Below are positions 2,659 to 61,845 of a stretch of DNA of 64,000 bases, one piece after another. Location: assembly GCF_963921235.1 (NCBI RefSeq), contig NC_086097.1, positions 111,044,001-111,108,000 on the forward strand, given 5' to 3'. The position numbers were made by a program, and so were the translations under genes. Position 1 is the first letter of the stretch; every line of letters starts with the position of its first letter. A model generated the notes under the pieces. It did no database searches. It was not told the origin of the DNA and worked only from the letters and a program-made list of their open reading frames with translations. This stretch comes from Mobula hypostoma (lineage: Eukaryota).

Positions 2659-3565
2659 CTACATGGCATAGAATCATAGTAACTTTAACAATAGTAGAAG
2701 AAATCTAGAACATGGCCACAAAAAGAAATCTAAAATTGGCTGTAAAGAACATTAAAGCAACAAATAAAAAACGCAACATTATTTTTGACATAAAATCTAA
2801 AGGAAACTTAACAGGTAACTAATGAATACAGGTCTGAATTTTACTTCTGAAATTTCAAGAATTGTTTTGTTACCAATAGCCCATATGATGAACAGAATGC
2901 TTCTTGCGCAAACAAAATAGATTGATTTATAAGACAGTAACAAAATTGGATACTGAAATCATACTCTATTTCTACAGCACCATTTAGAGCTATGAGGGCA
3001 TAGCTATGAAAAATGGGAACTCCTGGTAAGAACTATCAGTTTTCACTGACTTATCTAATGCTGATGGTCCAGTAAAATTTTTGTTTATGCATGCACCCAC
3101 AACTCAGATACACAGACAAATACAGCATTGTTGAAAAACTATGTTTTCTTGAACTAATAACCAAAGAGAATATTCTACAATACAAAAAAAATCATGAACT
3201 CAGTCAGAAAAGAATATTTTCTGTGACAGACATATGTTATTTAATAACATAAATGAAGAACTTCTTACAAACTCACTTTGGAATTTAATTGTATTTCTTG
3301 AAAATACAAACAAAATATCTTGGAATGCTACTACCACAAGGTTTTTCACTTTATCCTGACCACGCTCAGTCCTATCCTAATCTATGTAAATATAAGCAAA
3401 ACATGAGGCAAGATTTAGGAGCAGAATTAGGCCAATCAGCCCATCAACTCTGCTCCACCATTCAATCTTGGCACTTTTTTTAAAAATTCAACCAACTTCT
3501 CCATCCCCCTTCTCTCATTAACCCTCAAACAAGAATCTATCAATCTCTGCATTAAACACACCCAA

Positions 3566-3779
3566 ACAACAGGAATTCTGCAGATGCTGGAAATTCAAGC
3601 AACACACATAAAAGTTGCTGGTGAACGCAGCAGGCCAGGCAGCATCTCTAGGAAGAGGTGCAGTCGACGTTTCAGGCCGAGACCCTTCATCAGGACTTCG
3701 TCAGTCCTGACGAAGGGTCTCGGCCTGAAACATCGACTGCATCTCTTCCTAGAGATGCTGCCTGGCCTGCTGCATTCAC
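3566..3779. mobile_element. Palindromic Penelope-like mini-insertion with two inverted hammerhead motifs
   Basis: Matches the pLTR end at 57685; inverted arms; TSD cattaaacacacccaa at 3550-3565 and 3780-3795. Confidence 0.9.
3662..3697 (-). ncRNA. Minimal type I hammerhead ribozyme motif
   Basis: AGTC-CTGATGA-A-GGGT-CTCG-GCCT-GAAAC-GTC-GACT. The inverted partner at 3703-3738 has ATC instead of GTC. Confidence 0.75.
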
Positions 3780-3911
3780 CATTAAACACACCCAATGACT
3801 TGGCCTCCATAGTCCTTTATAGCAACAAATTCCAGAAATTCACCACTCTCCAGGTGGAAGAAATTCCTCCTCGTCTCAGTTTAAAGAGATGTCCCTTTAT
3901 TCTGATGCTAT

Positions 3912-21345: not shown

Positions 21346-22615
21346 CACAGTGGCTCTGACACAGTGTTTTGAAAGGCTCATTACAGCAAAATCATCTCCA
21401 GTCTCTCAGACAACCTCAACCTCTGGAATTTGACTACTATCAGGAACAGTTTCATGGCAGATGTCATTTCCTGGTCCAATACTCATCTCTAGAGCATCGG
21501 TTGAGTGAAGACACCTGTGCCAGACTACTGCCTTCAATACCATAACTTCAAGTAAATTTATTTCTAAACACCAAGACCTGAGACCCACCACCACCTTTTG
21601 CAACAGGATCCTTGACTTCTTGACCAACAGAGCACAATCAATAAAAATATTCAGCAACTCATCTGCCATAATTATCCTCAATGCTGGTGCCCCATGAGGC
21701 TGTGTCCTCAGCCCAACTTTATTCTCTATACACTTATGACAATGTAGACAGAATCTGTTCTAACTCCGTCTACAAGTTTGTAGTGGGCTGCAGATAAATA
21801 ATGATGTGTCTGAATACAGGAAGGAGATAGAGAGCTTAGTGGCACAGTGCCAAGGCAATTGTCCCTCAATGTCATCAAAATAAGTGTTGGTCATGCACCA
21901 AGAAGGGTGTGCAGTGCGCAGGCTCTTGTTTACATCAACAACGCTGAGGCCAGGCAGATCAAGTGCCTCAAGGTCCGGGGAGTGGACATCATGAATAGTC
22001 TGCTCTAGTCCAATTACACAGGCACCATGTTCAAGAAAGCACACCAACACCTCTGCTTCCTGAGGAGGATAAATACATTTGGCAACTCACCAACTTTTAA
22101 ATCAATACACCATGCAAGACAACAGGAATTCTGCAGATGCTGGAAATTCAAGCAACATACATCAAAGTTGCTGGTGAACGCAGCAGGCCAAGCAGCATCT
22201 ATAGGAAGAGGCGCAGTCGACGTTTCAGGCCGAGACCCTTCGTCAGGACAAAGGGTCTCGGCCTGAAACGTCGACTGCGCCTCTTCCTATAGATGCTGCT
22301 TGGCCTGCTGCGTTCACCAGCAATTTTGATGTATGTTACCATGCAAGACATCCTATCCAGGTGCATCACAGCTTGGTATGGCAACTGCTCTGCCTATGAC
22401 CACAAGAAACAATCCAGACTTACTGGCACAGCTCAGCAAATCAGGGAAACGAGCTTCCCATCAATGGACTCTGTCTATACTTCTCACTGCCCCAGTCAAG
22501 AGCCAACATATCAAAGGTCCCACCCAATGCTCTCTTTCTTCTCCCCTCTTCCATTGGGGAAAATATACAAAACTCTTAAATCATGTACCACCAGGCTCAC
22601 AGACAGTGTCTATCA
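21346..22615 (+). mobile_element. Old Rex1/Babar RT fragment, host of a Penelope mini-palindrome
   Basis: KKAHQHLCFLRR and CITAWYGNC remnants. Confidence 0.7.
22122..22337. mobile_element. Palindromic Penelope-like mini-insertion
   Basis: Arms meet near 22250; minus-strand hammerhead motif at 22215-22249; TSD accatgcaagaca at 22109-22121 and 22338-22350. Confidence 0.92.
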
Positions 22616-24752: not shown

Positions 24753-26082
24753 CAGGTGTCCCCCGCTTTTTGAACGTTCGCTTTATGAAACCTCACTGTT
24801 ACAAAAGACCTACATTAGTTCCCTGTTTTCGCTAAGAGTTTTCACTGTTATGAAAAAAAGCAGCGCGCAAAAAAAAGGCCCGCGCAGCCGCTCTCCCCCG
24901 GATTCGGAATGGCATTCTCGCCGGCATTGCTTAAACACCTGCCTGTGAGCAGCCGTTTGCAAGCTGAGTTCTAAGGTATTGCAAAAGCCTGAAAGAGCTC
25001 GTATGGGTGTTACACTTAGCGTAAAACTAGACATAATTAAGCATTTCGATCGTGGTGAATGAAGTAAGGACAAACTGAGTTTGGCTTGTGGAAGGTGACA
25101 AAGATGATGTTGAAGAGGTTTTGGCATCTCATGACCAAAAACTGATAGATGAAGAGCTGATGCAATTGCAAGAGGAAAGGATAACAATTAAAACCGAATG
25201 CAGTAGCGAAAGTAAAGTTGTCCAGGAACTGAATGTGAGGCAACTACGTGAAATTATCTGGGCCGCGGACAGATACCGATCCGCGGAGAATGCAGCAGTA
25301 GCCAGGAGGCACCCAGCACATCTTTAAGAAAAAAAGCCAAAATAAACAAGCTAATTAATTAGGTGCCGCCCGGCATGTAAATGTCGGCCCAGATCAGAGA
25401 CAATTGCCAATTGCGTCGCCTCTGATCTGGGCCGACATTTACGTGCCGGATGGCACCTAATTAATTAGCTTGTTTATTTCGGCTTTTTTCTTAAAGATGT
25501 GCTGGGTGCACCCCCGGCACCGCTGGACCGCTGCATTCTTCACAGATCGGTATCGGTTTGCTGCCTGGAGGGTGGGGGCCACTGTACCAGCCCAACTTCC
25601 TACGACTCAGCCTAACACCATCATCAGTGTGCTCGGCGCGTTCCCAATTCCGGTAAGTGATACTCCACTGTACAATACATTATTTCTACTTTATATCGGA
25701 TGTGTATTTTTACCTGTTATTTGGTATGATTTGGCAGCTTCATAGCTTAAAGGTTACTGGAGAGCGCTTGCGCTGTGTTTTTGCCAAGAACGCTTGCATG
25801 AGATTTTCGCTACGGAGAACAGTGCAGGCAATTATTGTGGAAAAGTATTTCTACTTTATATAGGCTGTGTATTCATCATATCATTCCTGCTTTTACTATA
25901 TGTTACTGTTATTTTAGGTTTTATATGTTATTTAGCATGATTTGTTAGGTTATTTTTGGGTCTGCAACACTCACAAATTTTTCCCATATAAATAAATGGT
26001 AATTGCTTCTTTGCTTTACGACATTCCGGCTTACGAAACGTTTCAGAGGAACGCTCTACCTTCGGAGGTCGGAGGAAACCTG
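24753..26082 (+). mobile_element. Non-autonomous pogo/Tigger-type DNA transposon with an internal palindrome
   Basis: TA on both sides; imperfect TIRs starting CAGGT; transposase-like remnants GVTLSVKLDIIKHFDRGE and DVEEVLASHDQKLIDEELMQL. Confidence 0.75.
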
Positions 26083-26795: not shown

Positions 26796-26946
26796 CTCCT
26801 AACCCATCTGGGTCATCTGTACTATCTTCAGTGTTCGAACTCTGCTGAGCTGTTTCTGTGCTTTCCTCCACAGAGGCTTGAGCTGTGGGTTCATGGACGC
26901 CCACACTTGACCCTCCAGGTACAGTCCTTTGCTTCAGTAATGCAAC
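26796..26946 (-). CDS. GOLGA4: GOLGA4 exon, 151 nt, phase 0-1: VALLKQRTVPGGSSVGVHEPTAQ...DDPDGLG
   Basis: ctatag acceptor, G/gtaatg donor. Starts VALLKQR (human VSLLKQR), then a divergent acidic linker; its phase-1 end fits the next exon. Confidence 0.88.
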
Positions 26947-27240
26947 CTATAGATATAATATGTTCAGCATTAACAAATTTGAAGTGCATTTCATGACATC
27001 TATGTTTGAAGCACTTCTTTGCACACAACCAATTCAGCTAAAAATACCAATTAATACAAATAAAAAAGTTCCTCAGGAACATCAGTAGCTATTTTATCCG
27101 TTAAGTAGCCATTTTTCCATGTCTGCCAAAGTAATGGACCCAATGAGGCAAAAAAATTATTTCTATTAGAAAAACCTGGTGACAGTGAATACACCTCAAA
27201 AACCATCTGGATAAATAAGAAAATTGCTCGTATTTCGATA

Positions 27241-27475
27241 AACACCCACAAAATACTGGAGGAACTCAGCAGGTCAGGCAGCATTTATGGAAATGAATCA
27301 CCAGTCAACGATTTGGGTATCTTCTCATTCTGGCATCTTCCCCCTTCCTTTCCAGTCCTGATGAAGGGTCTCGGCCTGTTGATTCATTTCCACAGATGCT
27401 GTCTGACCTGCTGAGTTCCTCTAGTATTTGTGTGTGTGTGACCCTGCACTTCCAGCATCTAAAGCAGCTCCTGTT
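27241..27475. mobile_element. Old palindromic Penelope pLTR remnant
   Basis: Inverted arms (ggaactcagcaggtcaggcagcat / atgctgtctgacctgctgagttcc) and a partial ctgatgaagggtctcggcct core. Confidence 0.7.
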
Positions 27476-27629
27476 CATATTTAGATATCTGAAAATCATA
27501 AAAACCTACCTGCATCAGGATTTATTTGCAAGATCTGTTGGTCAATACCCGAAGGAAATTTTGAATCCAGATTCATTTTACATTCAAATTAAAGAATTTA
27601 GTTACATGGTCAATAACAGAGTTACAAAG

Positions 27630-28170
27630 GAGGCCCTCTGTCGTTTGGGGTCAACCATGAATGTTGCGTCCCAGCATCTACAATGTATGCCAGCCAGGGC
27701 AGTATGATATGGAGAGCAAGCTGTTGCCCATGTAGCAGGCTGCCCCTCTCCAGGTAGCTGATGAATCCAAAGGAAAAGCAGAGACTGAAACAGTTTGGCA
27801 CCAGCAGTGTCACAAGAGTTGCCAATCAATGTTGAAATCAAAACAGGACTGCCTTAGGAAATCCAGCTGCGGATTCTTCCTCAGAGTTTACTTCCAAAGC
27901 CTTCCCATTACGTGGGTATAGCCCCAAGACAGCGGAGGTTTGAGAGAATTTTCTTTCTCCTCGGTGAGCAGCCAGCCATGGCTAACAAGCCTTTGCCCTT
28001 CTCCTGTCAGTAGAAATGGTGCCACCAGGGTAAATAGCTAAGCTACACGTGAAGGCCAGGAGCTGGACTTGGTTGTCAAAGGTTATTTGAGACACACGCC
28101 ACTGGGAGATTTAATAGGTAGTGGGAACTTATTCCTACTACCACCCAGTGCTTTATCAACTGTAAGGAAT
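27630..28170. repeat. Interspersed repeat with a second, inverted copy at 43823-44040; possibly RTE 5'-region derived
   Basis: Reverse-complement similarity to 43823-44040 (both encode GEGxPAxWATxCSPY-like text). Family assignment uncertain. Confidence 0.55.
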
Positions 28171-28857
28171 ATAGTTACAACAGACAACTAAATAATTAAA
28201 TGAAAAATCAAACTTGCAGATCAGTGTATAGCACTTAGTATTCCCCTATATCAGATAAACCAGGTAAAAGATTGAGTGACCGCTTTGTGGAGCATGGACA
28301 TTCAGCCCACAGGGGCAACCCTGATCTTTATTCAACTTGAATTCTTCATCCCAATATCATTCTGTGGCAGGTTACACTGACACACAATGCAAGTTTGAAA
28401 ATTCAGCACCTAACCTCTGCCTGGGCATGCTGCAACATTTTGGACTTGACACCGAATTCTACAATGTCAAGTAACTTGTTTTCTCTACCTTGTATCGGTC
28501 TTCATTGTGCTATTGGTTCAGCTTAACACGCCCTCACCCTTAGCTTTACCCCTCTGGAAGTTAAGGGCAGACTGACCTGTTACTCCTCTGCATTCTGTGG
28601 TTTATTCTCTACCCGTACTCCTTCCATTCACCTGACAACCTTGTGTACAGCGTATTCCCATGGTCATCCCTGTTTTACCCTAAGGCACCCTCTCTGCCCA
28701 AGTTTCCAGGCAGCTTAACAAGATTCTCTTTTTCCAATTCTAAGAAAATATCTTCACCCAATACAAGAACTGTCAAGAAGTTTCAGTATTTTCTGTTTCT
28801 ATTTAAACTGTAAACTATTTTGTTAACAATGTAAAATAATATAAACATACAAATATA

Positions 28858-29354
28858 CACTCAGTGGCCACTCTATTAGGTACCTCCTGTTTGTGGGCTT
28901 CTGGCTGCTGAAGCGCATTCACTTCAAGCGTCAAAGTATGGTGCATTCAGAGATGCTCATCTGCACACCACTGTTGTAACATGTTGCTATTTGAGTTACC
29001 GTCGTCTTCCTGTCAACTTGAACCATTCTCCTCTGGCCTCTCTCATTTTTGCCCACATAACTGCCAATCACTGCACATTCTCTGTAAATTCTGGAGACTT
29101 TTGCATGAAAATCTCAGGGCATCAGTAGTTTCTAATATACTCACATCACCCTGTCTGGCACCAATAATCATTTCATGGTCAAAGTCACTTAGATCACATT
29201 GCTTACCCATTCTGATGTTTGGTCTGAACATCAACTGAACCTCTTGACCAAGTTTGCATGCTTCTATGCAGTGGGTTGCTGCCACATGATTGACTGATTA
29301 GATGTTTGCATTAACCAGGTGTACAGGTGTACCTAATACAGTGACCACTGAAAG
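28858..29354. mobile_element. Tc1/mariner-type non-autonomous element
   Basis: TIR cactcagtggccactctattaggtac and its imperfect complement; TA flanks. Confidence 0.8.
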
Positions 29355-30483
29355 TACAGTAAATGGCAAGTCCCTTGGGAACACTGGTAGAGAGATCTCA
29401 GGGTGTCAAGTAATTCCCAAGGATGTGGCAACGTAAGTAGATGGGGGTGGTAAGAACTACGTACTGCATCCTTACCTTCATTGGTGGGAGTTCTGTGTAC
29501 AGATAGAGGAAGTCACACTGCAGATGTACAAAACCTTGGTAACGCCACATTTGGAGTATTAAAGTTAGGCAAACCTTGATCGCTTCCTTTGGAGCTTCAA
29601 AGGCTGAGGGACAACCTCATAATAAGTTTATAAATTATTTCCACTTCGCTGGAAAAAGGCCATGAAAGATCCTACCTACCTTGCTCATGGACTGTTTATC
29701 CGACTCCCATCAGGGAGGAGGCTACATAGCATCCACATCAGGACCACCAGACCCAGAAATACTTACTTTCACCAAGCAGTAAGGTTGATCAATACCTTCA
29801 CCCACTAACCCAACCAAACACACCCCAATCCTACTTTATTACTTCCTGTCAGAGTCACTCCTATACCTAGCATCACTTTATGGGCATACAATCTATGTAT
29901 ATAACCTTCTTATGTACTTATATTTATTGTAATTTTTTTTATTGTTGTATTCTTTATCTTAATGCATTTTTTTTTGTTCTGCCTCAGATCCGGAGTAACA
30001 ATAAAGTTTTTCTCCTTGCACTTGTGTACTGGAAATGACATTAAACAATCTTGAGACACATCACAGTCCTTAAACCCTAACCTGACCTCCAACCTCAAAA
30101 CTATCCCTACGAAAAAGAGCCTGAGCCACAACCTTGATGAAGACTGCAGTCCTCATCATCTTGACTAGTAGGACAGAACCTTTATCCAAAGAACCTACCT
30201 AGTCAAACTTTGTTGCACTCCTCATTTCTGAGGCAGGGTGACAAAGCTGATACACAATCTCACCAGTATCCTGTATAACTGGTCTGAGGCAACATTATAC
30301 TTGCACTCAAGCCTCTTTAGGCTTAAGGCTAACGTGCCATCTGCCTTCATAACTTCTTGCTAAATAGTAATGTTAAATTATTCATTTACCAGAACTCCTC
30401 AATCCCTTTGAGCACCAAAATTTTTCAATAAGTTACTAACTGAAATACACTCTGCTTTTACTCGCCCATATTATATTTCATCT

Positions 30484-30864
30484 AACACACACAAAATGCT
30501 GGTGGAACACAGCAGGCCAGGCAGCATCTATAGGAACAGGTACAGTCAACGTTTCGGGCCAAGACCCTTCGTCAGGACTAACTGAAAGAAGAGATAGTAA
30601 GAGATTTGAAAGTGGAAGGGGAAGGGGGAGATCCGAAATGATAGGAGAAGACAAGAGGGGGAGAGATGGAGCTAAGAGCTGGAAAATTGATTGGCAAGAA
30701 GATACAAGGCTGGAGAAGGGAGAGGATCATGGGACGGGAGGCCTAGGGAGAAAGAAGAGGGGAGCATTAGAGGAAGATATAGTGAGAGGGACACAGGGAG
30801 AAAAAGAGAGAATGAATGAATGAATGAACGAATGAACAATGGGGTAAGAAGGGGAGGAGGTGCT
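30484..30864 (-). mobile_element. Solo Penelope pLTR fragment with hammerhead motif at 30544-30579
   Basis: Similar to the pLTR at 57720-58110; TSD ttatatttcatct at 30471-30483 and 30865-30877; cleavage triplet GTT. Confidence 0.85.
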
Positions 30865-31224
30865 TTATATTTCATCTCCCATGTCTTGGATGTATCCCTT
30901 AGCCGGTCCATATCCCATTTTTGCACCTTCCACAGAAATTTCGATACCAACCAGCTTTGCTTCATCAGCAAATGCATTTAATAAATTCAGTCACCTTGAC
31001 ATTAGCATTGGCATCAATTGTAAAGTTATGATCCATGTATTGATCCCTAAAGCAGCCATCAGTATCAGTCTCTCAAACCATGAATTACCAGTTTATTCCA
31101 ACATTTTTCTGTGTCTCAACAAACCTTCAATTCAGGCAAAGATGCAACCCACCAATACATATCCTCAATTTCTGTTGAATAACCTCATGGGCACATGGTT
31201 AAAGTCTGACAACACAAATATCTG

Positions 31225-31728
31225 TTGTCCTGTCCAAGACCGAAAGAAGCTGCAGAAGATCGTGAACAGGGCGCAGCACATCACACAAACCAATCTTCCG
31301 TCCTTGGACTCACTTTACACCACATGCTGTTGGAACAGTACTGCCAGGATAATCAAGGACATGACTCACCCAGCCAACACACTTTTCGTCCCTCTTCCTT
31401 CCGGGAGAAGGCTCAGGAGCTTGAAGACTCGTACGACCAGATTTGGGAACAGCTTCTTTCCAACTATGATAAGACTGCTGAACGGATCCTGACCCAGATC
31501 TGGGACGTACCCTCCAAATATCCGGACCTGCCTCTAGGTTTTTTCGCACTACCTTACTTTCCATTTTTCTATTTTCTATTTATGATTTATAATTTAAATT
31601 TTTATATTTACTAATTTTTACTATTCTTAATTTTTAATATTTGTAATCCAGGGAGTGGGAAGCGCAGAATCAAATATTGCTGTGATGATTGTACGTTCTA
31701 GTATCAATTGTTTGGCGACAATAAGGTA
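31225..31728 (+). mobile_element. Rex1/Babar 3' fragment
   Basis: DRKKLQKIV, HPANTLFVPLPSGRRLRS and NSFFP motifs. Confidence 0.8.
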
Positions 31729-32580
31729 TCTACTCAATCTTCCATACTTCTTCTGCTTGTTACAGAATACAAAAAGTAAAAAAAAAATCAAACACGATTC
31801 TCCTTTTATAAATCCATGAACTGCAGATTCAACCCTATTCTATTTTTTCTTCCTTTCTTATGGGCTAGTAACCTCAATAGTAAGTTCTCATTTTCCTGAC
31901 ACTGACGCAAACCCAGCTGGTCTGTAGCAAGCTTTCAGTTTTCTGTGTTGCCAGCCCAAAATAGTACATCTAAATTTGCCGTCTTCCAAGTCCCAGAAAA
32001 ATATTCCTGAAACTTAGGAACAGAATATTTCAGAGGTTCATATTTTTGTTACTTCTTTATTGAAGCCTTACCATCTGTTTAATATCTGTCAATAAATTAT
32101 CATATCTATTTTCTTCAGACTTCCTTTTCTGAATTTTCTCAAATCTTCAGGATGAGTATACGTTTGGCCAACATTTTGGCCTTACTTGTAATTCACTGTT
32201 ACAAGCAATGTTCTATAGATGCTAGCTCAGATAATGACAATTAAACCAAAGTTAAAATGCAGATATAGTCAATCTAAATTGTGGAACTAGATTATCAAGA
32301 ATAAGAAACACAGCTGTGGAAGTGTAAGACTGCAAGAACAGCAGTGCAATTTTTCTCTTCCAACAGAAGCAACCTGATCTGCTGAGTATTTCCGGCATTC
32401 TTCATTTCTAACTGCCTCTTTTCAGCATTCCTCCATTTGTGCTCCTCCAAGCAATTACATTTGAATTCATCAGAGGCTACAAGAAGCAATTGTGTCACCT
32501 GGTATTCATTTTGTCCTTTGTTTGTAACTTAAAACACGTTTGATTTCTCCATTCTGTTGAAGATGTTACCTAATCTGCTG

Positions 32581-35500
32581 CCAACAACAGGAATTCTGCA
32601 GATGCTGGAAATTCAAGCAACACACATCAAAGTTGCTGGTGAACGCAGCAGGCCAGGCAGCATCTGTAGGAAGAGGTGCAGTCGACGTTTCAGGCCGAGA
32701 CCCCTCGTCAGGACTAACTGAAGGAAGAGTGAGTAAGGGATTTGAAAGTTGGAGGGGGAGGGGGAGGTCCAAAATGATAGGAGAAGACAGGAGGGGGAGG
32801 GATAGAGCCAAGAGCTGGACAGGTGATAGGCAAAAGGGGATACGAGAGGATCATGGGACAGGAGGTCCGGGAAGAAAGACGGGGGGGAGGGGGGACCCAG
32901 AGGATGGGCAAGAGGTATATTCAGAGGGACAGAGGGAGAAAAAGGAGAGTGAGAGAAAGAATGTGTGCATAAAAATAAGTAACAGATGGGGTACGAGGGG
33001 GAGGTGGGGCCTTAGCGGAAGTTAGAGAAGTCGATGTTCATGCCATCAGGTTGGAGGCTACCCAGACGGAATATAAGGTGTTGTTCCTCCAACCTGAGTG
33101 TGACTTCATCTTTACAGTAGAGGAGGCCGTGGATAGACATGTCAGAATGGGAATGGGATGTGGAATTAAAATGTTTGGCCACTGGGAGATCCTGCTTTCT
33201 CTGGCAGACAGAGCGTAGACGTTCAGCAAAGCGGTCTCCCAGTCTGCGTCGGGTCTCGCCATTATATAAAAGGCCACATTGGGAGCACCGGACGCAGTAT
33301 ATCACCCCAGTCGACTCACAGGTGAAGTGTTGCCTCCCTGGAAGGACTGTTTGAGGCCCTGAATGGCGGTAAGGGAGGAAGTGTAAGGGCATGTGTAGCA
33401 CTTGTTCCGCTTACACGGATAAGTGCCAGGAGGGAGATCAGTGGGGAGGGATGGGGGGGACGAATGGACAAGGGAGTTCTGTAGGGAGCGATCCCTGCGG
33501 AATGCAGGGGGGGGGAGGGAAAGATGTGCTTAGTGGTGGAATCCCGTTGGAGGTGGCGGAAGTTACGGAGAATAATATGTTGGACCCGGAGGCTGGTGGG
33601 GTGGTAGGTGAGGACCAGGGGAACCCTATTCCTAGTGGGGTGGCGGGAGGATGGAGTGAGAGCAGATGTACGTGAAATGGGGAAGATGCGTTTAAGAGCA
33701 GACTTGATAGTGGAGGAAGGGAAGCCCCTTTCTTTAAAAAAGGAAGACATCTCCCTCATCCTAGAATGAAAAGCCTCATTCTGAGAGCAGATGCGGTGGA
33801 GATGGAGGAATTGCGAGAAGGGGATGGCGTTTTTGCAAGAGACAGGGTGAGAAGAGGAATAGTCCAGATAGCTGTGAGAGTCAGTAGGCTTATAGTAGAC
33901 AACAGTGGATAAGCTGTCTCCAGAGACAGAGACAGAGACAGAAAGATCTAGAAAGGGGAGGGAGGTGTCGGGAATGGACCTGGTAAACCTGAGGGCAGGG
34001 TGAAAGTTGGAGGCAAAGTTAATAAAGTCAACGAGTTCTGCATGCGTGCAGGAAGCAGCGCCAATGCAGTCGTCGATGTAACGAAGGAAAAGTGGGGGAC
34101 AGATACCAGAATAGGCACGGAACATAGATTGTTCCACAAAGCCAACAAAAAGGCAGGCATAGCTAGGACCCATACGGGTGCTCATAGCTACACCTTTAGT
34201 TTGGAGGAAGTGGGAGGAGCCAAAGGAGAAATTATTAAGAGTAAGGACTAATTCCGCTAGACGGAGCAGAGTGGTGGTAGAGGGGAACTGATTAGGTCTG
34301 GAAACTGATTAGTTCCCTGGCCCCCACCGCTTTATTTTCACCATGGATGTCCAGTCCTTATATACTTCCATCCCCCATCAGGATGGTCTCAAAGCTCTAG
34401 GCTTCTTTTTGGATTCCAGACCTAATCAGCTCCCCTCTACCACCACTCTGCTCCATCTAGCGGAATTAGTCCTTACTCTTAATAATTTCTCCTTTGGCTC
34501 CTCCCACTTCCTCCAAACTAAAGGTGTAGCTATGGGCACCCGTATGGGTCCCAGCTATGCCTGCCTTTTTGTTGGCTTTGTGGAACAATCTATGTTCCGT
34601 GCCTATTCTGGTATCTGTCCCCCACTTTTCCTTCGCTACATCGACGACTGCATTGGCGCTGCTTCCTGCACGCATGCTGAGCTCGTTGACTTTATTAACT
34701 TTGCCTCCAACTTTCACCCTGCCCTCAGGTTTACCTGGTCCATTTCCGACACCTCCCTCCCCTTTCTAGATCTTTCTGTCTCTGTCTCTGGAGACAGCTT
34801 ATCCACTGATGTCTACTATAAGCCTACTGACTCTCACAGCTATCTGGACTATTCCTCTTCTCACCCTGTCTCTTGCAAAAATGCCATCCCCTTCTCGCAA
34901 TTCCTCCGTCTCCGCTGCATCTGCTCTCAGGATGAGGCTTTTCATTCCAGGACGAGGGAGATGTCTTCCTTTTTTAAAGAAAGGGGCTTCCCTTCCTCCA
35001 CTATCAAGTCTGCTCTTAAACGCATCTCCCCCATTTCACGTACATCTGCTCTCACTCCATCCTCCCGCCACCCCACTAGGAATAGGGTTCCCCTGGTCCT
35101 CACCTACCACCCCACCAGCCTCCGGGTCCAACATATTATTCTCCGTAACTTCCGCCACCTCCAACGGGATCCCACCACTAAGCACATCTTTCCCTCCTCC
35201 CCTCTCTGCTTTCCGCAGGGATCGCTCCCTAGGCAACTCCCTTGTTCATTCATCCCCCCCCCCCATCCCTCCCCACTGATCTCCCTCCTGGCACTTATCT
35301 GTGTAAGTGGAACAAGTGCTACACATGCCCTTACACTTCCTCCCTTACCACCATTCAGGGCCCCAAACAGTCCTTCCAGGTGAGGCAACACTTCACCTGT
35401 GAGTCGACTGGGGTGATATACTGCGTCCGGTGCTCCCGATGTGGCCTTTTATATATTGGCGAGACCCGACGCAGACTGGGAGACCGCTTTGCTGAACATC

Positions 35501-36073
35501 TACGCTCTGCCCGCCAGAGAAAGCAGGATCTCCCAGTGGCCACACATTTTAATTCCACATCCCATTCCCATTCTGACATGTCTATCCACGGCCTCCTCTA
35601 CTGTAAAGATGAAGTCACACTCAGGTTGGAGGAACAACACCTTATATTCCGTCTGGGTAGCCTCCAACCTGATGGCATGAACATCGACTTCTCTAACTTC
35701 CGCTAAGGCCCCACCTCCCCCTCGTACCCCATCTGTTACTTATTTTTATGCACACATTCTTTCTCTCCCTCTGTCCCTCTGAATATACCTCTTGCCCATC
35801 CTCTGGGTCCCCCCCCCATCTTTCTTCCCGGACCTCCCGTCCCATGATCCTCTCGTATCCCCTTTTGCCTATCACCTGTCCAGCTCTTGGCTCTATCCCT
35901 CCCCCTCCTGTCTTCTCCTATCATTTTGGATCTCCCCCTCCCCCTCTCAAATCCCTTACTCACTCTTCCTTCAGTTAGTCCTGACGAGGGGTCTCGGCAT
36001 GAAACGTCGACTGCACCTCTTCCTACAGATGCTGCCTGGCCTGCTGCGTTCACCAGCAACTTTGATGTGTGTT
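32581..36073. mobile_element. Fold-back Penelope-like insertion: minus arm 32583-34303, plus arm 34311-36073
   Basis: Both arms encode the RT C-terminus (RYIDD), GIY-YIG and pLTR; one TSD ac(c/t)taatctgctg at 32568-32580 and 36074-36086. Confidence 0.93.
32680..32715 (-). ncRNA. Minimal hammerhead ribozyme motif (left arm)
   Basis: AGTC-CTGACGA-G-GGGT-CTCG-GCCT-GAAAC-GTC-GACT. The mirror copy at 35977-36012 (+) has a stem II mismatch. Confidence 0.72.
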
Positions 36074-36540
36074 ACTTAATCTGCTGAGCACGTTTCCACT
36101 AAAGCAATAATGACCAAAGAAATATCTGATTACCAGGCACAGTTTTCTGTTAAACTAAGTAGTTTACTTTACTAACAAAAGGTTACAATGCAATCACAAA
36201 TCAAAATCAACATTTCTACATTATCTATCATAACTTGATATTTCATGTCTAAGAACATTCTATCAGAAAAATATTATACAACCCTGACTAATCTGATGAA
36301 AATCCCAGTTCAAGAGTTATTTATGGACGTGCAGTTTATTCCCTAGCATGATTGTTCTTTCGATACTAGTATATTTAAGAAATCTTAAATTGTTAAATTT
36401 CAAATTATTTTAACATCAAGGCTGCAGCCATGTTCATATACACAGTCCTCTGAAAGTAGAATACAGGTAGACAGGGTGGTGAAGAAAACTTTTGGCATGC
36501 TGGCCTTCATCAGCCAAGGCTCTGAGAATACAAGTTCCAA

Positions 36541-38806
36541 AGGCAACATTCTGACAGGCTGCATCACTGTCTGGTATAGTGGGACTACTGCACAGGACCG
36601 AAAGAAGCAGCAGTGGGTTGTAAAATTAGTCGCCTCCATCTTGGGTACTAGCCTACAAAGTCATGGGTGTACAGAGAGTAAAGGGGGGGCCTTAGGACAA
36701 GCCCTGGAGGGGTCCTGTGTTGAGGGTCAGAGGTGAGGGAGCCAGTGATCTGACAGTAAGTCCAGGATCCAACTGCACAAGGGAGGGTGAAGGCCAAGGT
36801 CTTTGAGCTTCTTGTAAAGCCGAGAGGGAATTATGGTGTTGAATGCTGAACTGTAGTCCAAGGACAGCATTCTCACATAAGCATCCCTCTTCTCCAGGTG
36901 TGTAAGGACGGTGTGTAGAGCTGTGGTTATTGTGTCATCTGTCGATCAGTTGTCCCGATAGGCAAATTATAGGGGGTCCAGTGTGGGTGGTAGCACACTC
37001 AGACGAAGTCCTTGACCAGCCTCTCAAAACATTTGCTAATTATTGAGGTGTGTGCGACAGGACGCCAGTCATTCAGACACGTTACCTTGGTCTTTTTAGG
37101 TACAGGGACAGTGGTGGATGTTTTGAAGCAGGAGGGCACTCTACACTGGGAGAGGGAGAGATTAACAATGTCTGCAAACACACCAGCCAGTTGTGCCGCA
37201 CATATCCTGAGTACCCGCCCTGGGATGCCATCCAGTCCCGCAGCCTTGTGACTGTCCACTCGTTGGAAACACCTGTGTACTTCAGCCTCAGAGATGACCA
37301 AGGTGCAGGTACATCAACGACTCTCCTCAGAGGCTCAGTGTAGGCGACATTGAACAGAGTGTGAAAAAGATTTAGCTCATCTGGGAGAGAGACAGTGATG
37401 TTGGCAGCACCAATGCATTTAGCTTTGAAGTCGGCGATAGTGTGCAGACTTTACCATAAACTGCATATGTCTGAATCTTGTCCCTGTATTTTCATTTCGC
37501 TGCTTTGATGATTTTGCGTAGATCGTAGCTGTATTTCTTAAGTTCCTGGTGGTTACTGGTGGCCAAAGTTCTGTCTCGCTCAGTGGGTGTAGCGCGCTCA
37601 GAACTGCTGATCCAGGGCTTCTGTTTTGGATAGACCCTGACCGATTTTTGGGAGACAAATGTCCTCGATGCGCTTCTGGATGAAGCTCAAGACCCCTTCC
37701 GTGAACTCAGAGACATTCACATCACAAAACACATTCCAGTTGACATCATCAAAGCAGTCTTGCAGCATGGAGACTGATTGGGTAGACCAACAGCGGACAG
37801 TTTTAATTATGGCCGCCTCTTGTTTCAGCTTCTGCCCATACACAGGCAGAAGCAGGATGGAGGAGCGGTCAGACTTCCCAAGCGGTGGACAGAGGAGCGC
37901 TTTGTAAGCATTGTGGAAAGGAGAGTAGCAGTGGACAAGTATGCTATCTCCCTGTGTGCTGACCTGGATGTGTTGACAAAACTTCAGAGAGACTTTAGTC
38001 AGCGACGCTCGATTAAAGTCTCTGGTGATGATGAAAGCCGCCTCCAGGTTACAGTCTTCTGTGTGCTGATGGTCTCGTACAGTTCCTTGAGCCAGGTCAG
38101 TATCAGCCTGCAGTGGAATGTACACAGCTGAGATAATTACAGCAGTGAACCCTCTAGGCAGCCAGAAAGGTCTGCGCAGCAGCATCAGGCACTCCAGATC
38201 CAGGGAACAAAATGATTTGAAGGCATGCACATTCTGGGGTTTGCACCAAGCATTATTGACCATGAAGTGTACGCCACCTCCTTTACTCTTCCCAGAGAGG
38301 TTTTTTTGACCTGTCCACCCAGAACAGGGAGAACCCAGAGGGCTCGACGGCATGATCCAGTATCTCCTCCCTCATCCAGGTCTCCACAAAGTACAAAACA
38401 TTACATTCCTTTGTTTCCCACTGGTAGGAGATTCTGGCCCTCAGCTCACACACCTTGTTGTCCAGGGTCGGAACATTAGCCAAGAGTACGCTAAGGAGCG
38501 GTAGCCAATCAACCTCACCAGGACTCCGGCCCTTCTCCCTCACCTCGGGCGTGACTTCCGAGGTTGTGACGGTGCAATAATTGAGCCTCCTATGGATCAC
38601 GTAAGCAGGAGTTCCCAGTGTACAAAAGGTGGCACATTGTGGGTAAATGCCATCTTCCTGATGTTCAGAAGAGTCGGTTGATCATATCTGATGTGACTAT
38701 CAGCTTCTTGAACAAGAAATGTGAAGGAAATTGCAGAAATTAAGAGTACACTGTAAAACTGTTACGGAGCTCACAACACGACTCCCATACGCAGTGCCAT
38801 CTTGGC
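36541..38806 (-). mobile_element. Decayed Rex1/Babar LINE, 5' end through RT, with a short opposite-strand 3' piece at 36541-36660
   Basis: LLANVPTLDNK, GGGVHFMVN and KAAGLDGIPGRVLR motifs; 5' caagatggc. Confidence 0.8.
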
Positions 38807-39211
38807 AAAAGGAAAGTCAATTAGCCATTGGAAACTGCCCCTAGAGGGTAGGTACGTGGTAGAATCTGGAAAGATTTACTCAGCCAAGAAATTGGATAAA
38901 TGTAGGATTTGTTAACAATTGGTGGTTGGCACTCAGATAGGTGGAAAGGCACATGGTGTTAAGGAAGCAGTGAGACTTTTCTCTTAAATAATGGGTTTAT
39001 GTGGTCACTGTCTGTTGTATTAACAAACTCTGCCATTGAATGGAATCATGGCACAATCAGACCCAGAACTCACTTCCCATTAACAAGCTCAAATACAGGA
39101 CATCAAAATTACACAACTGAAAGTGGAACAGTATAATCACTCGCCTGCATTGCAATCTGTTTAGTTACCATCTAGCCAATTATGAATACATGTACCAATT
39201 ATGCCTTCTAC

Positions 39212-39310
39212 CTGTGTCTGCAGAACACCAATAAATTGATCTTTCTCCTCCAGAGCTGCTTCAAATTCATCCTGAATGTGCTTCTTTGCCTGCTGAATCA
39301 TCTGTAGCTC
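39212..39310 (-). CDS. GOLGA4: GOLGA4 exon, 99 nt: ELQMIQQAKKHIQDEFEAALEEKDQFIGVLQTQ
   Basis: tttcacag acceptor, CAG/gtagaa donor; matches human ELQMDQQAKKHLQEEFDASLEEKDQYISVLQTQ. Confidence 0.95.
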
Positions 39311-41699: not shown

Positions 41700-42020
41700 C
41701 TCTGAATATTTCGATCTATAATTGGCCAAACTCCGCTCAATCCGACGAAACTGGTTGGAAGATATGTCCTTACTGATGCTCTCAAAGGTGCCTGCATTAT
41801 CTTCTGTCTCACTTTCAATATCTGATGATGGATCAAAGATGGCACCAGAAGACTGAACATCTAAATCAAACCGATTAAGTGACTCTCTTGAAGCAGTTCG
41901 TACAAGTGAGTCTTTTGAAGGCGATGAGAAAAGTGATTCTTTGGAAGAGGCTCGAAATAAAGACTCCATGGAGGGAACACGAAGTTGAAGTTTCTGGGCA
42001 AAAGACTGCATCTCGGTTTT
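41700..42020 (-). CDS. GOLGA4: GOLGA4 exon, 321 nt: KTEMQSFAQKLQLRVPSMESLFR...RSLANYRSKYSE
   Basis: Poly-T tract plus tag acceptor, GAG/gtagtt donor. Peptide matches the golgin-245 N-terminus (QSFAQKLQLRVPSVESLFR...SLVRTSSRESLNR...KYSE). Confidence 0.95.
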
Positions 42021-57430: not shown

Positions 57431-57781
57431 TTCAAAGAGACAGTACAGGAGCGTAAGCTTCTTCCACTCTATCAGATTTCTGAAACAGCCCATGAACACT
57501 CACCCACTATTACTCATTTGCACTATTAATTTTTTAATTGTGACTGGACTTTTTAAATTATATCTTTGCACTGTACTGCTGTCACAAAAGCAAATTTCAA
57601 GACATAGTGATAATAAACCTGATTCTGATTTTGAAATAAAACTGCATTTCTCATTATTCTGCAAACCAGAGGATGGATGTGTATAACAACAGGAATTCTG
57701 CAGATGCTGGAAATTCAAGCAACACACATAAAAGTTGCTGGTGAACGCAGCAGGCCAGGCAGCATCTATAGGAAGAGGCGC

Positions 57782-57817
57782 AGTCGACGTTTCAGGCCGA
57801 GACCCTTCGTCAGGACT
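57782..57817 (-). ncRNA. Minimal hammerhead ribozyme in the 3' pLTR (predicted cut between 57786 and 57785)
   Basis: AGTC-CTGACGA-A-GGGT-CTCG-GCCT-GAAAC-GTC-GACT; stem I AGTC/GACT; loopless palindromic stem III ACGT. Confidence 0.8.
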
Positions 57818-58111
57818 AACTGAAGGAAGAGTGAGTAAGGGATTTGAAAGCTGGAGGGGGAGGGGGAGATGCAAAATGATAGGAGAAGACAGGAGGGGGA
57901 GGGATGGAGCCGAGAGCTGGACAGGTGATAGGCAGAAAGGGATACGAGAGGATCATGGGACAGGAGGTCCGGGAAGAAAGACGGGGGGGGGGGTGACCCA
58001 GAGGATGGGCAAGAGGTATATTCAGAGGGACAGAGGGAGAAAAAGGAGAGTGAGAGAAAGAATGTGTGCATAAAAAAGAGTAACAGATGGGGTACGAGGG
58101 GGAGGTGGGGC

Positions 58112-61100
58112 CTAGCGGAAGTTAGAGAAGTCAATGTTCATGCCATCAGGTTGGAGGCTACCCATACGGAATATAAGGTGTTGTTCCTTCAACCTGAGTG
58201 TGGCTTCATCTTTACAGTAGAGGAGGCCGTGGATAGACATGTCAGAATGGGAATGGGATGTGGAATTAAAATGTGTGGCCACTGGGAGATCCTGCTTTCT
58301 CTGGCGGACAGAGCGTAGATGTTCAGCAAAGCGGTCTCCCAGTCTGCGTCGGGTCTCACCAATATATAAAAGGCCACATCGGGAGCACCGGACGCAGTAT
58401 ATCACCCCAGTCGACTCACAGGTGAAGTGATGCCTCACCTGGAAGGACTGTTTGGGGCCCTGAATGGTGGTAAGGGAGGAAGTGTAAGGGCATGTGTAGC
58501 ACTTGTTCCGCTTACACGGATAAGTGCCAGGAGGGAGATCAGTGGGGAGGGATGGGGGGGACGAATGGACAAGGGAGTTGTGTAGGGAGCGATCCCTGCG
58601 GAATGCAGAGAGAGGGGGGGAGGGGAAGATGTGCTTAGTGGTGGGATCCCGTTGGAGGTGGCGGAAGTTACGGAGAATAATATGTTGGACCCGGAGGCTG
58701 GTGGGGTGGTAGGTGAGGACCAGGGGAACCCTATTCCTAGTGGGGTGGTGGGAGGATGGAGTGAGAGCAGATGTACGTGAAATGGGGGAGATGCGTTTAA
58801 GAGCAGACTTGAGAGTGGAGGAAGGGAAGCCCCTTTCTTTAAAAAATGAAGACATCTCCCTCGTCCTAGAATGAAAAGCCTCATCCTGAGAGCAGATGCG
58901 GCGGAGACGGAGGAATTGCAAGAAGGGGATGGCGTTTTTGCAAGAGACAGGGTGAGAAGAGGAATAGTCCAGATAGCTGTGAGAGTCAGTAGGCTTATAG
59001 TAGACATCAGTGGATAAGCTGTCTCCAGATACAGAGACAGAAAGATCTAGAAAGGGGAGGGAGGTGTCGGAAATGGACCAGGTAAACTTGAGGGCAGGGT
59101 GAAAGTTGGAGGCAAAGTTAATAAAGTCAACGAGTTCTGCATGCGTGCAGGAAGCAGCGCCAATGCAGTCGTCGATGTAGCGAAGGAAAAGTGGGGGACA
59201 GATACCAGAATGGGCACGGAACATAGATTGTTCCACAAACCCAACAAAAAGGCAGGCATACCTAGGACCCATACGGGTGCCCATAGCTACACCTTTAGCT
59301 TGGAGGAAATGGGAGGAGCAAAAGGAGAAATTATTAAGAGTAAGGACTAATTCTGCTAGACGGAGCAGAGTGGTGGTAGAGGGGAACTGATTAGGTCTGG
59401 AATCCAAAAAGAAGCGTAGAGCTTTGAGACCTTCCTGATGGGGGATGGAAGTATATAGGGACTGGACATCCATGGTGAAAATAAAGCGGTGGGGGCCAGG
59501 GAACTTAAAATCATCGAAAAGTTTAAGAGCGTGAGAAGTGTCACGAACATAGGTCGGAAGGGATTGAACAAGGGGTGATAAAACAGTGTCGAGGTATGCA
59601 GAAACGAGTTCGGTGGGGCAGGAGCAAGCTGAGACAATAGGTCGGCCAGGACAGGCAGGTTTGTGGATCTTGGGTAGGAGGTAGAAACGGGAAGTGCGGG
59701 GTGTGGGAACTATAAGGTTGGTAGCAGTGGATGGGAGATCCCCTGAGCGGATAAAGTCGTTGATAGTGTGGGAGACAATGGCCTGGTGCTCCTTAGTGGG
59801 GTCACGATCGAGGGGTAAATAAGAGGAGGTATCCGCGAGTTGGCGCTGTGCCTTGGCAAGGTAGAGGTCAGTACGCCAGACTACAACAGCACCCCCTTTA
59901 TCAGCGGGTTTAATAATAATGTTAGGATTAGTGCGGAGGGAGTGGAGAGCAGAGCGTTCCGAAGGAGTGAGGTTGGAATGGGGACAAGGTGCGGTGAAGT
60001 CGAGACGGTTATGTCCCGTCGGCAGTTGGCAATAAAGAGATCCAGAGCAGGCAGAAGACCAGAGCGGGGTGTCCATGAAGAAGAGGAGGGTTGAAGACGG
60101 GAGAAGGGGTCATCGGTGGGGGTGGAAGAGTCCTTGCCGAAGAAGTAGGCTCGGAGACGGAGACGGCGGAAGAAAAGTTCCGCATCATGGCGAACACGGA
60201 ACTCGCTGAGGTGTGGGCGAAGGGGGACAAACGTGAGGCCCTTACTGAGAACAGAGCGTTCTGCCTCCGACAGTTGAAGGTCGGAGGGGATGGTAAAGAC
60301 CCGGCACGGATGAGAGCTGGGATCAGAGGGGGGAGGGGGGAGGCTGGGGGTGTCAATGGAGAGGGGAGGGTTGGGGTGAGAGGAAGATGGAGCCTCTGAG
60401 GGCCCAGGAGTTGACGGTGGGATCTGAGGAAGACGGGGCTGCGGAGTGGTGGTGGGGGAAGGGGAGACGGGAGTCACAACAGCAGCACATAAAGACCCGG
60501 CCTGGAGTTCAAGGCTGGAGTCGCAGTTGGTGGTTGCGCAATCGCTGTGAAGGTGTCCGTGGTCGTTGCTGGAGTCCGGGTTTTGAATATGTCCTGAGGT
60601 GTTGGAGCCGCCGAGATCAACGGCAGTGGCCGCAACCGAAAGTTCATGCCTGCTAGCGTCGGGGCCGGCAGGCTCTGGAGTCCGTAGATGTAAGATCTTG
60701 CGATCTTTGCCTAACATGACAAAGTCAAAGAAACGGCGATTGCAGGCGTGGATCCGACGGAGGATGAAATAGCGGGTAGGACCATTACAGACGGCGAAGA
60801 AAGTGTCCCGAAGGTGTGGAAGGGTCTGGGATAGGGACACCAAGTACCTCCTCATGGCGGACAGCGTCGCCTTCAGAGCTTGACGGGAGAAGCGGCGAGA
60901 GGCAGAGTCAATAAAATGTGAGTACCTGGGATCCTCAGAAGGTCCAAATTGAGAGGCTTGGAAACGAATCCTAAAGCCAACTGGAGTAAGTTGGCGACGG
61001 AGGCATGTTCCAAGAAAGGATACATGGCTGTGATAGCGAGTTTGAGTCAAAGTCTGGTCGAAAAGTTGAAGAGCCGAAGAAATCACAGATGGGGAGCAGT

Positions 61101-61161
61101 GAGAGATGGTTTCACTGAACTCCCGTCGAAGAGAGGATCTAAACTTCTTCGGTGTAGGCAT
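58112..61161 (-). pseudogene. Penelope RT plus GIY-YIG ORF (~1016 aa if restored) with a single 1-nt deletion near 60010
   Basis: MPTPKK start; IIKPADKGG, YLLPKIHK, GRPIVS, MDVQSLYTSI, GVAMGT, RYIDD; linker CKRNKCYTC; VIYCVRCSRCGLLYIGET...FAEH. Frames join as ANCRRDI/NRLDF if one base is added. Confidence 0.92.
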
Positions 61162-61295
61162 CACCGGAAGAGGCTTCGCAGTAGTGAATTTAAACGCAAA
61201 CAACAGGAATTCTGCAGATGCTGGAAATTCAAGCAACACACATAAAAGTTGCTGGTGAACGCAGCAGGCCAGGCAGCATCTATAGGAAGAGGCGC

Positions 61296-61331
61296 AGTCG
61301 ACGTTTCAGGCCGAGACCCTTCGTCAGGACT
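61296..61331 (-). ncRNA. Minimal hammerhead ribozyme in the 5' pLTR (predicted cut between 61300 and 61299)
   Basis: Identical to 57782-57817; about 140 nt upstream of the ORF ATG. Confidence 0.8.
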
Positions 61332-61845
61332 AACTGAAGGAAGAGTGAGTAAGGGATTTGAAAGCTGGAGGGGGAGGGGGAGATGCAAAATGATAGGAGA
61401 AGACAGGAGGGGGAGGGATGGAGCCGAGAGCTGGACAGGTGATAGGCAGAAGGGGATACGAGAGGATCATGGGACAGGAGGTCCGGGAAGAAAGACGGGG
61501 GGGGGGGTGACCCAGAGGATGGGCAAGAGGTATATTCAGAGGGACAGAGGGAGAAAAAGGAGAGTGAGAGAAAGAATGTGTGCATAAAAAAGAGTAACAG
61601 ATGGGGTACGAGGGGGAGGTGGGGCCTAGCGGAAGTTAGAGAAGTCAATGTTCATGCCATCAGGTTGGAGGCTACCCATACGGAATATAAGGTGTTGTTC
61701 CTCCAACCTGAGTGTGGCTTCATCTTTACAGTAGAGGAGGCCGTGGATAGACATGTCAGAATGGGAATGGGATGTGGAATTAAAATGTGTGGCCACTGGG
61801 AGATCCTGCTTTCTCTGGCGGACAGAGCGTAGATGGATGTGTATA

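What the first reader, a model, noticed from the sequence alone, without database searches (positions are those of the whole stretch)
32581..36073. 3.5-kb fold-back insertion: ~1.7-kb inverted arms from one Penelope event
Seen: one TSD encloses a minus arm (32583-34303) and a plus arm (34311-36073), leaving a loop of ~110 nt; the junction has a filler (actgatt) copied from just upstream. Both arms share variants absent from the 57.7-kb copy (DEVTLR versus DEATLR, ALRFT versus ALKFT, ctgacgaGggg), so they come from one template. Unlike L1 twin priming, the arms duplicate the same sequence. Inference: the GOLGA4 pre-mRNA forms a ~1.6-kb dsRNA here, a likely ADAR or Dicer substrate, and the DNA could be cruciform-prone.
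Basis: partly seen in the sequence, partly recalled or inferred. Interest (0 to 1): 0.7.

Follow-up and report, generated by a model that had tools for sequence, protein, structure and literature searches.

The report
Ordinary head-to-head Penelope retroelement insertion
Two truncated copies of a Penelope-like jumping gene sit back to back inside an intron of the GOLGA4 gene as one insertion, which is the usual, already published way these elements land, so the long RNA hairpin it could form is most likely a by-product.

Summary
The structure is real. Arms 32615-34303 and 34414-36077 are inverted copies (41 substitutions in 1651 columns, 7 gaps) around a 110-nt loop. One 17-nt target duplication (1 mismatch) encloses them, and only the left arm carries a ~36-nt tail. 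The element has RT plus a C-terminal GIY-YIG and a Neptune/Nematis-type linker. It lies in a GOLGA4 intron (minus strand). This layout is published as typical for Penelope-like elements. Two smaller copies in this window repeat it, and this scan noted similar 3.7-3.8-kb pairs elsewhere in the genome. Three variants shared by the arms are rare family-wide (0.3-2.4% of depth), so one source lineage is supported; one RNA molecule is not shown. Best mechanism (inferred): both cut target ends primed a cDNA, at the family's two start sites, and the cDNA ends were joined with a templated filler. Plain fold-back of one cDNA fits worse, because the loop lies on the tail-less arm. A ~1.6-kb duplex folds in silico and ADAR editing is plausible, but it is untested here. 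A cruciform is unlikely given the 110-nt spacer. Ordinary; low interest.

The parts
32564..32580 (.). left copy of the target-site duplication (first 4 letters shared with the element's tail-less end)
32581..32582 (.). two extra letters between TSD and tail, not matching the element's continuation
32583..32618 (-). 3' 'tail' of the Penelope-like element, on the left arm only (36 nt; 32-40 depending on how shared letters are assigned)
32583..34303 (-). left arm: 5'-truncated, frameshifted copy (RT C-terminal part, Cys linker, GIY-YIG, 3' region); sense in the GOLGA4 pre-mRNA
32688..32717 (-). minimal hammerhead-like core in the left arm, seen by eye; no Rfam match
34304..34310 (.). 7-nt junction filler identical to 34287-34293, followed by an AG that matches both the copied site and the right arm's first letters
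34311..34413 (+). 103 nt present only on the right arm; with the filler it makes the 110-nt loop
34311..36073 (+). right arm: 5'-truncated, frameshifted copy without tail; Pfam RVT_1 (below cut-off) and GIY-YIG (above cut-off) pieces
36070..36086 (.). right copy of the target-site duplication (1 mismatch to the left copy)
26947..39211 (-). host GOLGA4 intron (~12.3 kb) that holds the insertion; upstream exon 39212-39310 matched to homologs, downstream exon 26796-26946 inferred from splice sites and phase only
57685..61835 (-). near full-length sibling with direct pseudo-LTR (61199-61835, 2 mismatches in 637 nt) and its own 14-nt TSD; used for comparison
22119..22337 (.). short head-to-head insertion of the same family, tail on the left arm only, TSD of at least 12 nt
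3565..3781 (.). short head-to-head insertion of the same family, tail on the left arm only, 16-nt TSD, templated 5-nt filler at the junction

Best explanation
It is one integration event of an endonuclease-bearing Penelope-like retroelement (Neptune/Nematis-type linker), now dead, in the head-to-head layout typical of the group (shown from sequence; about 0.9). Mechanism (inferred; about 0.6): the GIY-YIG nuclease cut both target strands 13-17 nt apart. Each free 3' end primed reverse transcription on element RNA from one source lineage, one at the outer start site (giving the tailed left arm) and one ~36 nt further in (giving the tail-less right arm). Both cDNAs stopped after ~1.7 kb, 103 nt apart. 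Their 3' ends were joined by microhomology-primed copying: one end annealed at a 2-nt match, copied 7-8 nt, let go and re-annealed at the other end, leaving the filler. Host repair completed the second strands. The arms then decayed independently and about equally. The long duplex in the GOLGA4 pre-mRNA is a by-product; if transcribed and paired it is probably edited by ADAR like other inverted repeats, with no sign here of a function.
For: One TSD round both arms, beyond the random null. Tail on one end only, here and in two more fold-backs in the window. Craig 2021 describes an inverted 5'-truncated copy at the 5' end and a one-sided 30-40-bp tail as typical (passages); Arkhipova 2013 gives the same with a TSD and says head-to-head is most frequent (passages). 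The purified lizard protein cleaves and extends both target strands and starts RT at two sites that bound the tail. In human L1, oppositely oriented RT products are read as joined DNA ends each extended by RT. The loop lies on the tail-less arm here, on the tailed arm at 22 kb, and on neither at 3.6 kb, as expected for two cDNAs that stop independently. Templated filler with AG match at 2 of 3 junctions. Private changes 21 and 20; the left arm's letter is a family minority at all 16 of its 21 private sites that the table shows. Three shared letters are rare in the family. A contig of a second organism runs from the left flank 24 letters into the tail and differs from the flank at 18 of ~896 letters (2.0%), close to the arm-arm 2.5% (Fisher p 0.49).
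Against: No step of the mechanism was observed; the in vitro work is on a different clade (Poseidon) and its authors leave the later steps unvalidated. Arkhipova 2013 reads inverted junctions as self-priming, and Craig 2021 ascribes the tail to nuclease resolution of an intermediate; a hairpin intermediate cut unevenly could give this layout too. The junction has a weak mini-palindrome (3-bp stem). The central junction is spanned by none of the 32 contig pieces listed (273,467 not shown), and the two flank contigs enter the element by 24-25 letters, under the tool's 31-letter bar for bridging. Arm differences are uneven (4 of 41 in the outer third; corrected p about 0.01, 0.07 without CpG sites), and right-only changes are 8 of 17 synonymous against 1 of 20 for left-only (p 0.005, after the fact), so conversion or two slightly different templates may complicate the picture.
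Confidence: 0.7

Rival explanations
1. One event, but by self-priming: a single cDNA (or an extrachromosomal hairpin intermediate) folded back at a 2-nt match ~100 nt behind its end, copied itself, and the nuclease resolved the product unevenly, leaving the tail on one side.
For: Proposed for Penelope inverted junctions in PMC3846280; tail by nuclease resolution in PMC8557442. The filler sequence also exists within the right arm's own cDNA, so it could have been copied in cis. Rare letters shared by both arms are expected.
Against: The loop belongs to the right arm, so the right arm would be the first cDNA; its copy cannot gain a tail that the right arm lacks, unless the tail was trimmed later. 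Loop side varies among the three fold-backs. The junction is not a true palindrome.
Confidence: 0.2
2. Two independent insertions that happen to abut, or a later host-repair inverted duplication of one arm.
For: The family is very abundant (summed depth about 10^5 times the unique flank; not a copy number). Right-only changes lean synonymous.
Against: One 17-nt TSD round both, no TSD at the centre, tail asymmetry, rare shared letters, and two more cases in 64 kb. A repair duplication would not put the flank TSD at the copy's exact family end.
Confidence: 0.05
3. Assembly or long-read fold-back artefact.
For: The central junction and the right flank were not confirmed by contigs. Inverted Penelope structures are known to trouble assemblies.
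Against: Arms differ at 41 sites and 7 gaps, with 12 CpG-type changes, split evenly; the TSD, the tail asymmetry and the filler would not arise from a read artefact; the flanks are not mirrored.
Confidence: 0.03
4. The hairpin has been kept for a host role: an edited or diced duplex that tunes GOLGA4 splicing or feeds small RNAs against the family.
For: 1627 arm-to-arm pairs, uninterrupted helices up to 266 bp; intronic; probably shared by two organisms (hint); outer third unusually alike. Penelope is heavily edited in lizard and elephant shark brain has about 200,000 hyper-edited sites.
Against: Divergence matches neutral decay (9 of 37 coding changes synonymous against 29% expected; arm-arm close to the species flank distance). 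The insert is 3.1 and 5.6 kb from the nearest exons. Such duplexes are common in this genome.
Confidence: 0.04

Closest known systems
Inverted (head-to-head) insertions of endonuclease-containing Penelope-like elements, e.g. Pen2a_Av and Pen2 of Adineta vaga (PMC3846280) and Fig. 2 of PMC8557442
   Same: 5'-truncated copy inverted at the 5' end, one TSD round the unit, 30-40-nt tail on one end, sibling with direct pseudo-LTR.
   Different: Arms are ~1.7 kb and nearly equal in length, against ~0.2-kb inverted pLTRs in the rotifer examples; the junction has a templated filler and no clear palindrome.
Poseidon element PAc of Anolis carolinensis (PMC11167929)
   Same: Two 3' ends 30-40 nt apart that bound the tail; hammerhead-like motif near the end; both target strands extended in vitro.
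   Different: PAc is Penelope/Poseidon (no linker finger); this family has a CX4CX2C linker. The passages read do not analyse inverted genomic pairs.
L1 twin priming and L1 insertions made of two opposed RT products (PMC11702581)
   Same: Both target ends extended by RT, one TSD, joint by end-joining.
   Different: L1 inverted parts are adjacent pieces of one RNA with 1-10-bp overlap or gap and a poly(A) end; here both arms start at the element's 3' end and overlap by ~1.65 kb.
ADAR hyper-editing of inverted repeats in pre-mRNA (PMC5625713)
   Same: Two inverted copies in one pre-mRNA; Penelope named as a massively edited element in lizard.
   Different: No editing was measured at this locus.

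Membership tests
EN+ Penelope-like elements | One ORF with RT and C-terminal GIY-YIG | tested here: met
   Sibling 665-aa frame: RVT_1 E 1.7e-4 and GIY-YIG E 1e-3, both under Pfam cut-offs; right arm GIY-YIG E 5.8e-5, over cut-off; YIDD motif
EN+ Penelope-like elements | CCHH finger with two Cys between GIY and YIG | tested here: met
   Cys pair directly before YIG at residue 572 and His at 597; further His seen in the translation; definition
EN+ Penelope-like elements | Partial tandem forming a pseudo-LTR | tested here: met
   In the sibling: 61199-61835 repeats 57685-58321 with 2 mismatches
EN+ Penelope-like elements | Inverted 5'-truncated copy adjoining the 5' end | tested here: met
   The finding itself and two more in the window
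EN+ Penelope-like elements | 30-40-nt tail on one end only | tested here: met
   36 nt on the left arm; absent from the right arm
EN+ Penelope-like elements | Minimal hammerhead ribozyme in the pLTR | tested here: inconclusive
   Core letters seen by eye in both arms; Rfam scan of 32400-36300 gave 0 matches at E<=1; the MFE fold did not give the hammerhead shape
EN+ Penelope-like elements | RT groups with PLE clades in a tree | not tested
   No reference set was fetched
Neptune/Nematis clades | CX2-5CxxC linker between RT and EN | tested here: met
   Match at residue 532 of the sibling frame; definition
Neptune/Nematis clades | Placement in Neptune rather than Nematis by RT phylogeny | not tested
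   Motif alone does not separate the two
L1-type twin priming | Inverted parts are adjacent, non-overlapping pieces of one RNA (1-10-bp overlap or gap) | tested here: not met
   Arms overlap by ~1.65 kb; definition
Long-read or assembly fold-back artefact | Near-identical mirrored arms without TSD (recalled) | tested here: not met
   41 substitutions, 7 gaps, TSD and tail asymmetry
ADAR-edited or Dicer-processed duplex | A-to-G clusters or 21-22-nt reads on this locus | not testable with these tools
   Only contigs were available; the two RNA-like runs gave no cover of most unique flank bins

The most novel reading that the evidence does not exclude
The locus is a clean fossil of how Penelope-like elements make their inverted ends: a two-headed integration in which each target strand primes its own cDNA at one of two start sites and the cDNA ends are stitched by polymerase-theta-like templated joining, rather than by self-priming as proposed earlier. 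With the many sibling insertions in this genome, loop side, filler and arm identity would decide that open question by counting. The outer third of the arms may also record arm-to-arm gene conversion.
Probability: 0.5. Interest if true: 0.4.

Novelty: new member of a known kind. Interest (0 to 1): 0.15.

Why it matters
As a single locus it matters little: the layout is in print as typical of Penelope-like elements, and editing of Penelope duplexes is already reported in a lizard. Its use is as one data point on an unsettled step of the transposition cycle. The tail sits on the arm that lacks the loop and the junction holds a templated filler, which favours priming at both target ends over fold-back of one cDNA. 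A family-wide count could turn that into a result. A host role for the duplex would matter more but has no support here.

Tried and rejected
No whole genome is held for this window, so no genome-wide census of fold-backs was possible. A 25-nt tail pattern found 0 stretches in the metagenome collection; the protein query matched 83 stretches, none confirmed. Rfam: 0 matches. ESM Atlas gave no usable hit for the host exon; the homolog search named it. Sequencing runs: no RNA holder listed. The two runs guessed to be RNA had no depth in most unique flank bins, so they say nothing on transcription or editing; their A>G counts (25, 27) are differences from the left arm, as in the DNA runs (30, 29). 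The 'opposite strands' joint 34303-34413 is normal family sequence running on past the end of the laid stretch, not proof of the fold-back. Only 31300-34413 was laid, so the right arm, right flank and empty site were not examined. Run X1 may be the assembly's own sample and is not independent. tblastn of 5 homologs did not find the exon at 26796-26946. The 61849-62219 copy next to the 57.7-kb element was considered as a fourth fold-back and rejected: the 57.7-kb element has its own TSD there and the two are only ~89% alike. Paper searches for twin priming with Penelope (2 papers, neither on the point by title) and for Penelope in cartilaginous fish found no description of this family or of dual priming for these elements; the library lacks most subscription papers, including Arkhipova 2006 and Evgen'ev and Arkhipova 2005, which I did not see.

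Full report
Observation. A self-comparison of the window aligns 32615-34303 with the reverse complement of 34414-36077 at 95.2%, with 42 mismatches and 7 gap openings; the repeat finder leaves 110 nt between the innermost arms. The loop is a 7-nt filler (34304-34310), identical to 34287-34293, plus 103 nt that only the right arm holds. A 17-nt duplication with one mismatch lies at 32564-32580 and 36070-36086; four of its letters are also the element's end, so 13 are unambiguous. The same search on 1000 random flank pairs gave at most 11 nt in 999 and 30 nt in one. The left arm runs 36 nt further at its 3' end than the right arm.

What the element is. [quoted passage not shown] It has the Cys pair before YIG and a CX4CX2C linker, which Craig 2021 gives as marks of endonuclease-bearing Penelope-like elements and of the Neptune and Nematis clades (passages). 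It has a 637-nt direct pseudo-LTR with 2 mismatches and its own 14-nt TSD. A minimal hammerhead core is visible by eye near the 3' end, as described for these elements (passages); Rfam found nothing. Both arms are 5'-truncated and frameshifted. No tree was built, so the clade rests on motifs.

Host gene. The exon at 41700-42020 (minus strand) matches proteins named golgin subfamily A member 4 (31 hits among 291 candidates, best E 1.6e-30). Five homologs place further exons at about 41.4, 39.9, 39.3 and 2.6 kb, all minus. An exon at 26796-26946 is inferred from splice sites and phase and was not found by tblastn. The insert is thus intronic, about 3.1 kb from the upstream exon and 5.6 kb from the inferred downstream one.

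It is a family habit. Two short insertions in the same window, 22119-22337 and 3565-3781, have the same plan: tailed minus arm, tail-less plus arm, one TSD. [quoted passage not shown] Arkhipova 2013 describes units with an inverted pLTR, a tail and a 9-10-bp TSD and calls head-to-head the most frequent arrangement (passages). A curation guide lists inverted pLTRs and short 3' extensions as known peculiarities (passages). Earlier notes of this scan record 3.7- and 3.8-kb head-to-head pairs in the same genome; these are unchecked AI notes, used as leads only. They call the host a ray; I did not test this.

One event, one template? In 1651 ungapped columns the arms differ at 41 sites (2.5%; 21 left-only, 20 right-only; 12 of CpG type) and agree against the 57.7-kb copy at 32. 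Agreement against one copy proves little. Laying four runs' contigs on 31300-34413 gave family-wide letters for 40 sites, with 113 rows hidden. Four of the 32 shared sites appear: the arms' letter makes 1.4% (32704), 2.4% (33103), 0.3% (33989) and 30% (32804) of depth in run X1. Sixteen of the 21 left-only sites appear, and the left arm's letter is the minority at all 16, as expected of new mutations; none of the 20 right-only sites appears. Depths are sums over contigs at 90% likeness and are rough. Two results cut against a simple picture. Only 4 of the 41 differences fall in the outer third of the arms (scan-corrected p 0.008-0.011; 0.07 without CpG sites), which hints at arm-to-arm conversion, and two of the three rare shared letters lie there. 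Right-only coding changes are 8 of 17 synonymous against 1 of 20 left-only (p 0.005, noticed after the fact; pooled 9 of 37 fits the neutral 29%), a weak hint of two non-identical templates or just chance. One RNA molecule is not shown.

Reality and age. In run X1 one contig covers 31709-32605 with no substitutions, and in run X5 (a second organism) one covers 31709-32604 with 18; both run to their last letter 24-25 nt inside the tail. That is below the tool's 31-letter bar, so it is a hint that the insertion is present in both organisms. The flank distance (2.0%) is close to the arm-arm distance (2.5%; p 0.49), which fits arms identical at insertion, somewhat before the split, and decaying neutrally. 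An artefact is still unlikely, because mirrored reads do not yield evenly split private changes, a TSD and a one-sided tail (inference).

Mechanism. The 3' ends of both arms face outward against the TSD copies, the geometry expected if each cut target strand primed a cDNA (inference from target-primed reverse transcription). The purified lizard Penelope protein cleaves and extends both strands and starts at two sites that bound the tail; later steps are unvalidated (parts 1-2 of 4 read; supplementary Fig. S2, not seen, bears on tail ends). At the joint, the filler and the following AG fit a 2-nt anneal, a 7-8-nt copy and a re-anneal; the 3.6-kb insertion shows the same with a 5-nt filler, and the 22-kb one a 3-nt overlap. 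Polymerase theta makes such templated insertions in cis and in trans (abstract only); which enzyme acted here is unknown. For human L1, opposed RT products are read as two extended DNA ends joined together, while classical twin priming leaves only 1-10-bp overlaps (passages of a preprint). The rival is self-priming. In a plain fold-back the loop belongs to the first cDNA and the copy cannot outrun it. Here the loop is on the right arm and the extra tail on the left, so fold-back needs an added trimming step, such as the nuclease resolution suggested. I put priming at both ends at about 0.6 and fold-back at about 0.2.

RNA and DNA structure. Folded as the minus-strand transcript, the insert forms 1627 arm-to-arm pairs in helices up to 266 bp, at -3500 kcal/mol against -981 for a neighbouring stretch of equal length. 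Editing is plausible: Penelope carries over 40,000 edited sites in lizard and elephant shark brain about 200,000 hyper-edited sites in all (passages). It could not be tested here. Nothing points to Dicer. In yeast, hairpin effects fall once the spacer passes about 8 bp and a long spacer greatly lowers structure formation (passages), so a cruciform is unlikely with 110 nt and mismatched arms; hairpins in long single-stranded DNA remain possible (PMC10164571, search listing only).

Verdict. Real, single, dead Penelope-like insertion in a layout that is in print as typical. The arms are long and the junction is informative on an open mechanistic step, but one locus does not settle it. New member of a known kind; interest 0.15.

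Noticed in passing
window 22119-22337: Short head-to-head insertion of the same family; arms 1 mismatch in 85 nt; turn at the hammerhead-like motif with a 3-nt overlap; TSD of at least 12 nt.
   Followed up: partly
window 3565-3781: Short head-to-head insertion with 16-nt TSD and a 5-nt filler copied from just upstream; the filler keeps a CpG that the left arm has since lost; right arm ends ~20 nt short of the usual tail-less end.
   Followed up: partly
window 57685-61835: Young near full-length copy with direct pseudo-LTR and 14-nt TSD; its ORF is split near 59.9-60.1 kb. It abuts an older tail-less plus-strand copy (61849-62219, ~89% alike), making a chance inverted pair.
   Followed up: partly
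window 33703 and matching sites in the right arm and the 57.7-kb copy: All three copies share a letter that makes only 0.4% of family depth, so they belong to one narrow sub-lineage although 25 kb apart; local hopping is possible.
   Followed up: no
window 32615-33174 and 35544-36073: Outer third of the arms has only 4 of the 41 substitutions; possible arm-to-arm gene conversion.
   Followed up: partly
window 33018-34303 against 34414-35700: Left-only coding changes are 1 of 20 synonymous, right-only 8 of 17; unexplained.
   Followed up: partly
window 35999: A right-arm change breaks a pair in stem II of the hammerhead-like motif; the shared change at 32704/35988 only turns A-U into G-U.
   Followed up: no
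window 31709-32605: Contigs of both DNA runs are 7 letters longer than the window over this flank (7 and 9 gap letters); haplotype difference or assembly indel.
   Followed up: no
window 5026-5140 and 25261-25565: Two further palindromic repeats; the first resembles an older relative of this family's 3' end, the second is unrelated.
   Followed up: no
window 12787-16707 (+), with 11290-12210 (+): Open 1306-aa frame that reads like an L1-type ORF2 (endonuclease and RT, by eye) with a likely ORF1 upstream, antisense in a GOLGA4 intron.
   Followed up: no
window 1-1162 and 9527-10713: Inverted pair of older LINE fragments, 78% alike, 8.4 kb apart, on either side of a GOLGA4 exon at ~2.5-2.7 kb.
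   Followed up: no
window 31300-31720: High-copy repeat just left of the unique flank (depth like the element's in all four runs).
   Followed up: no
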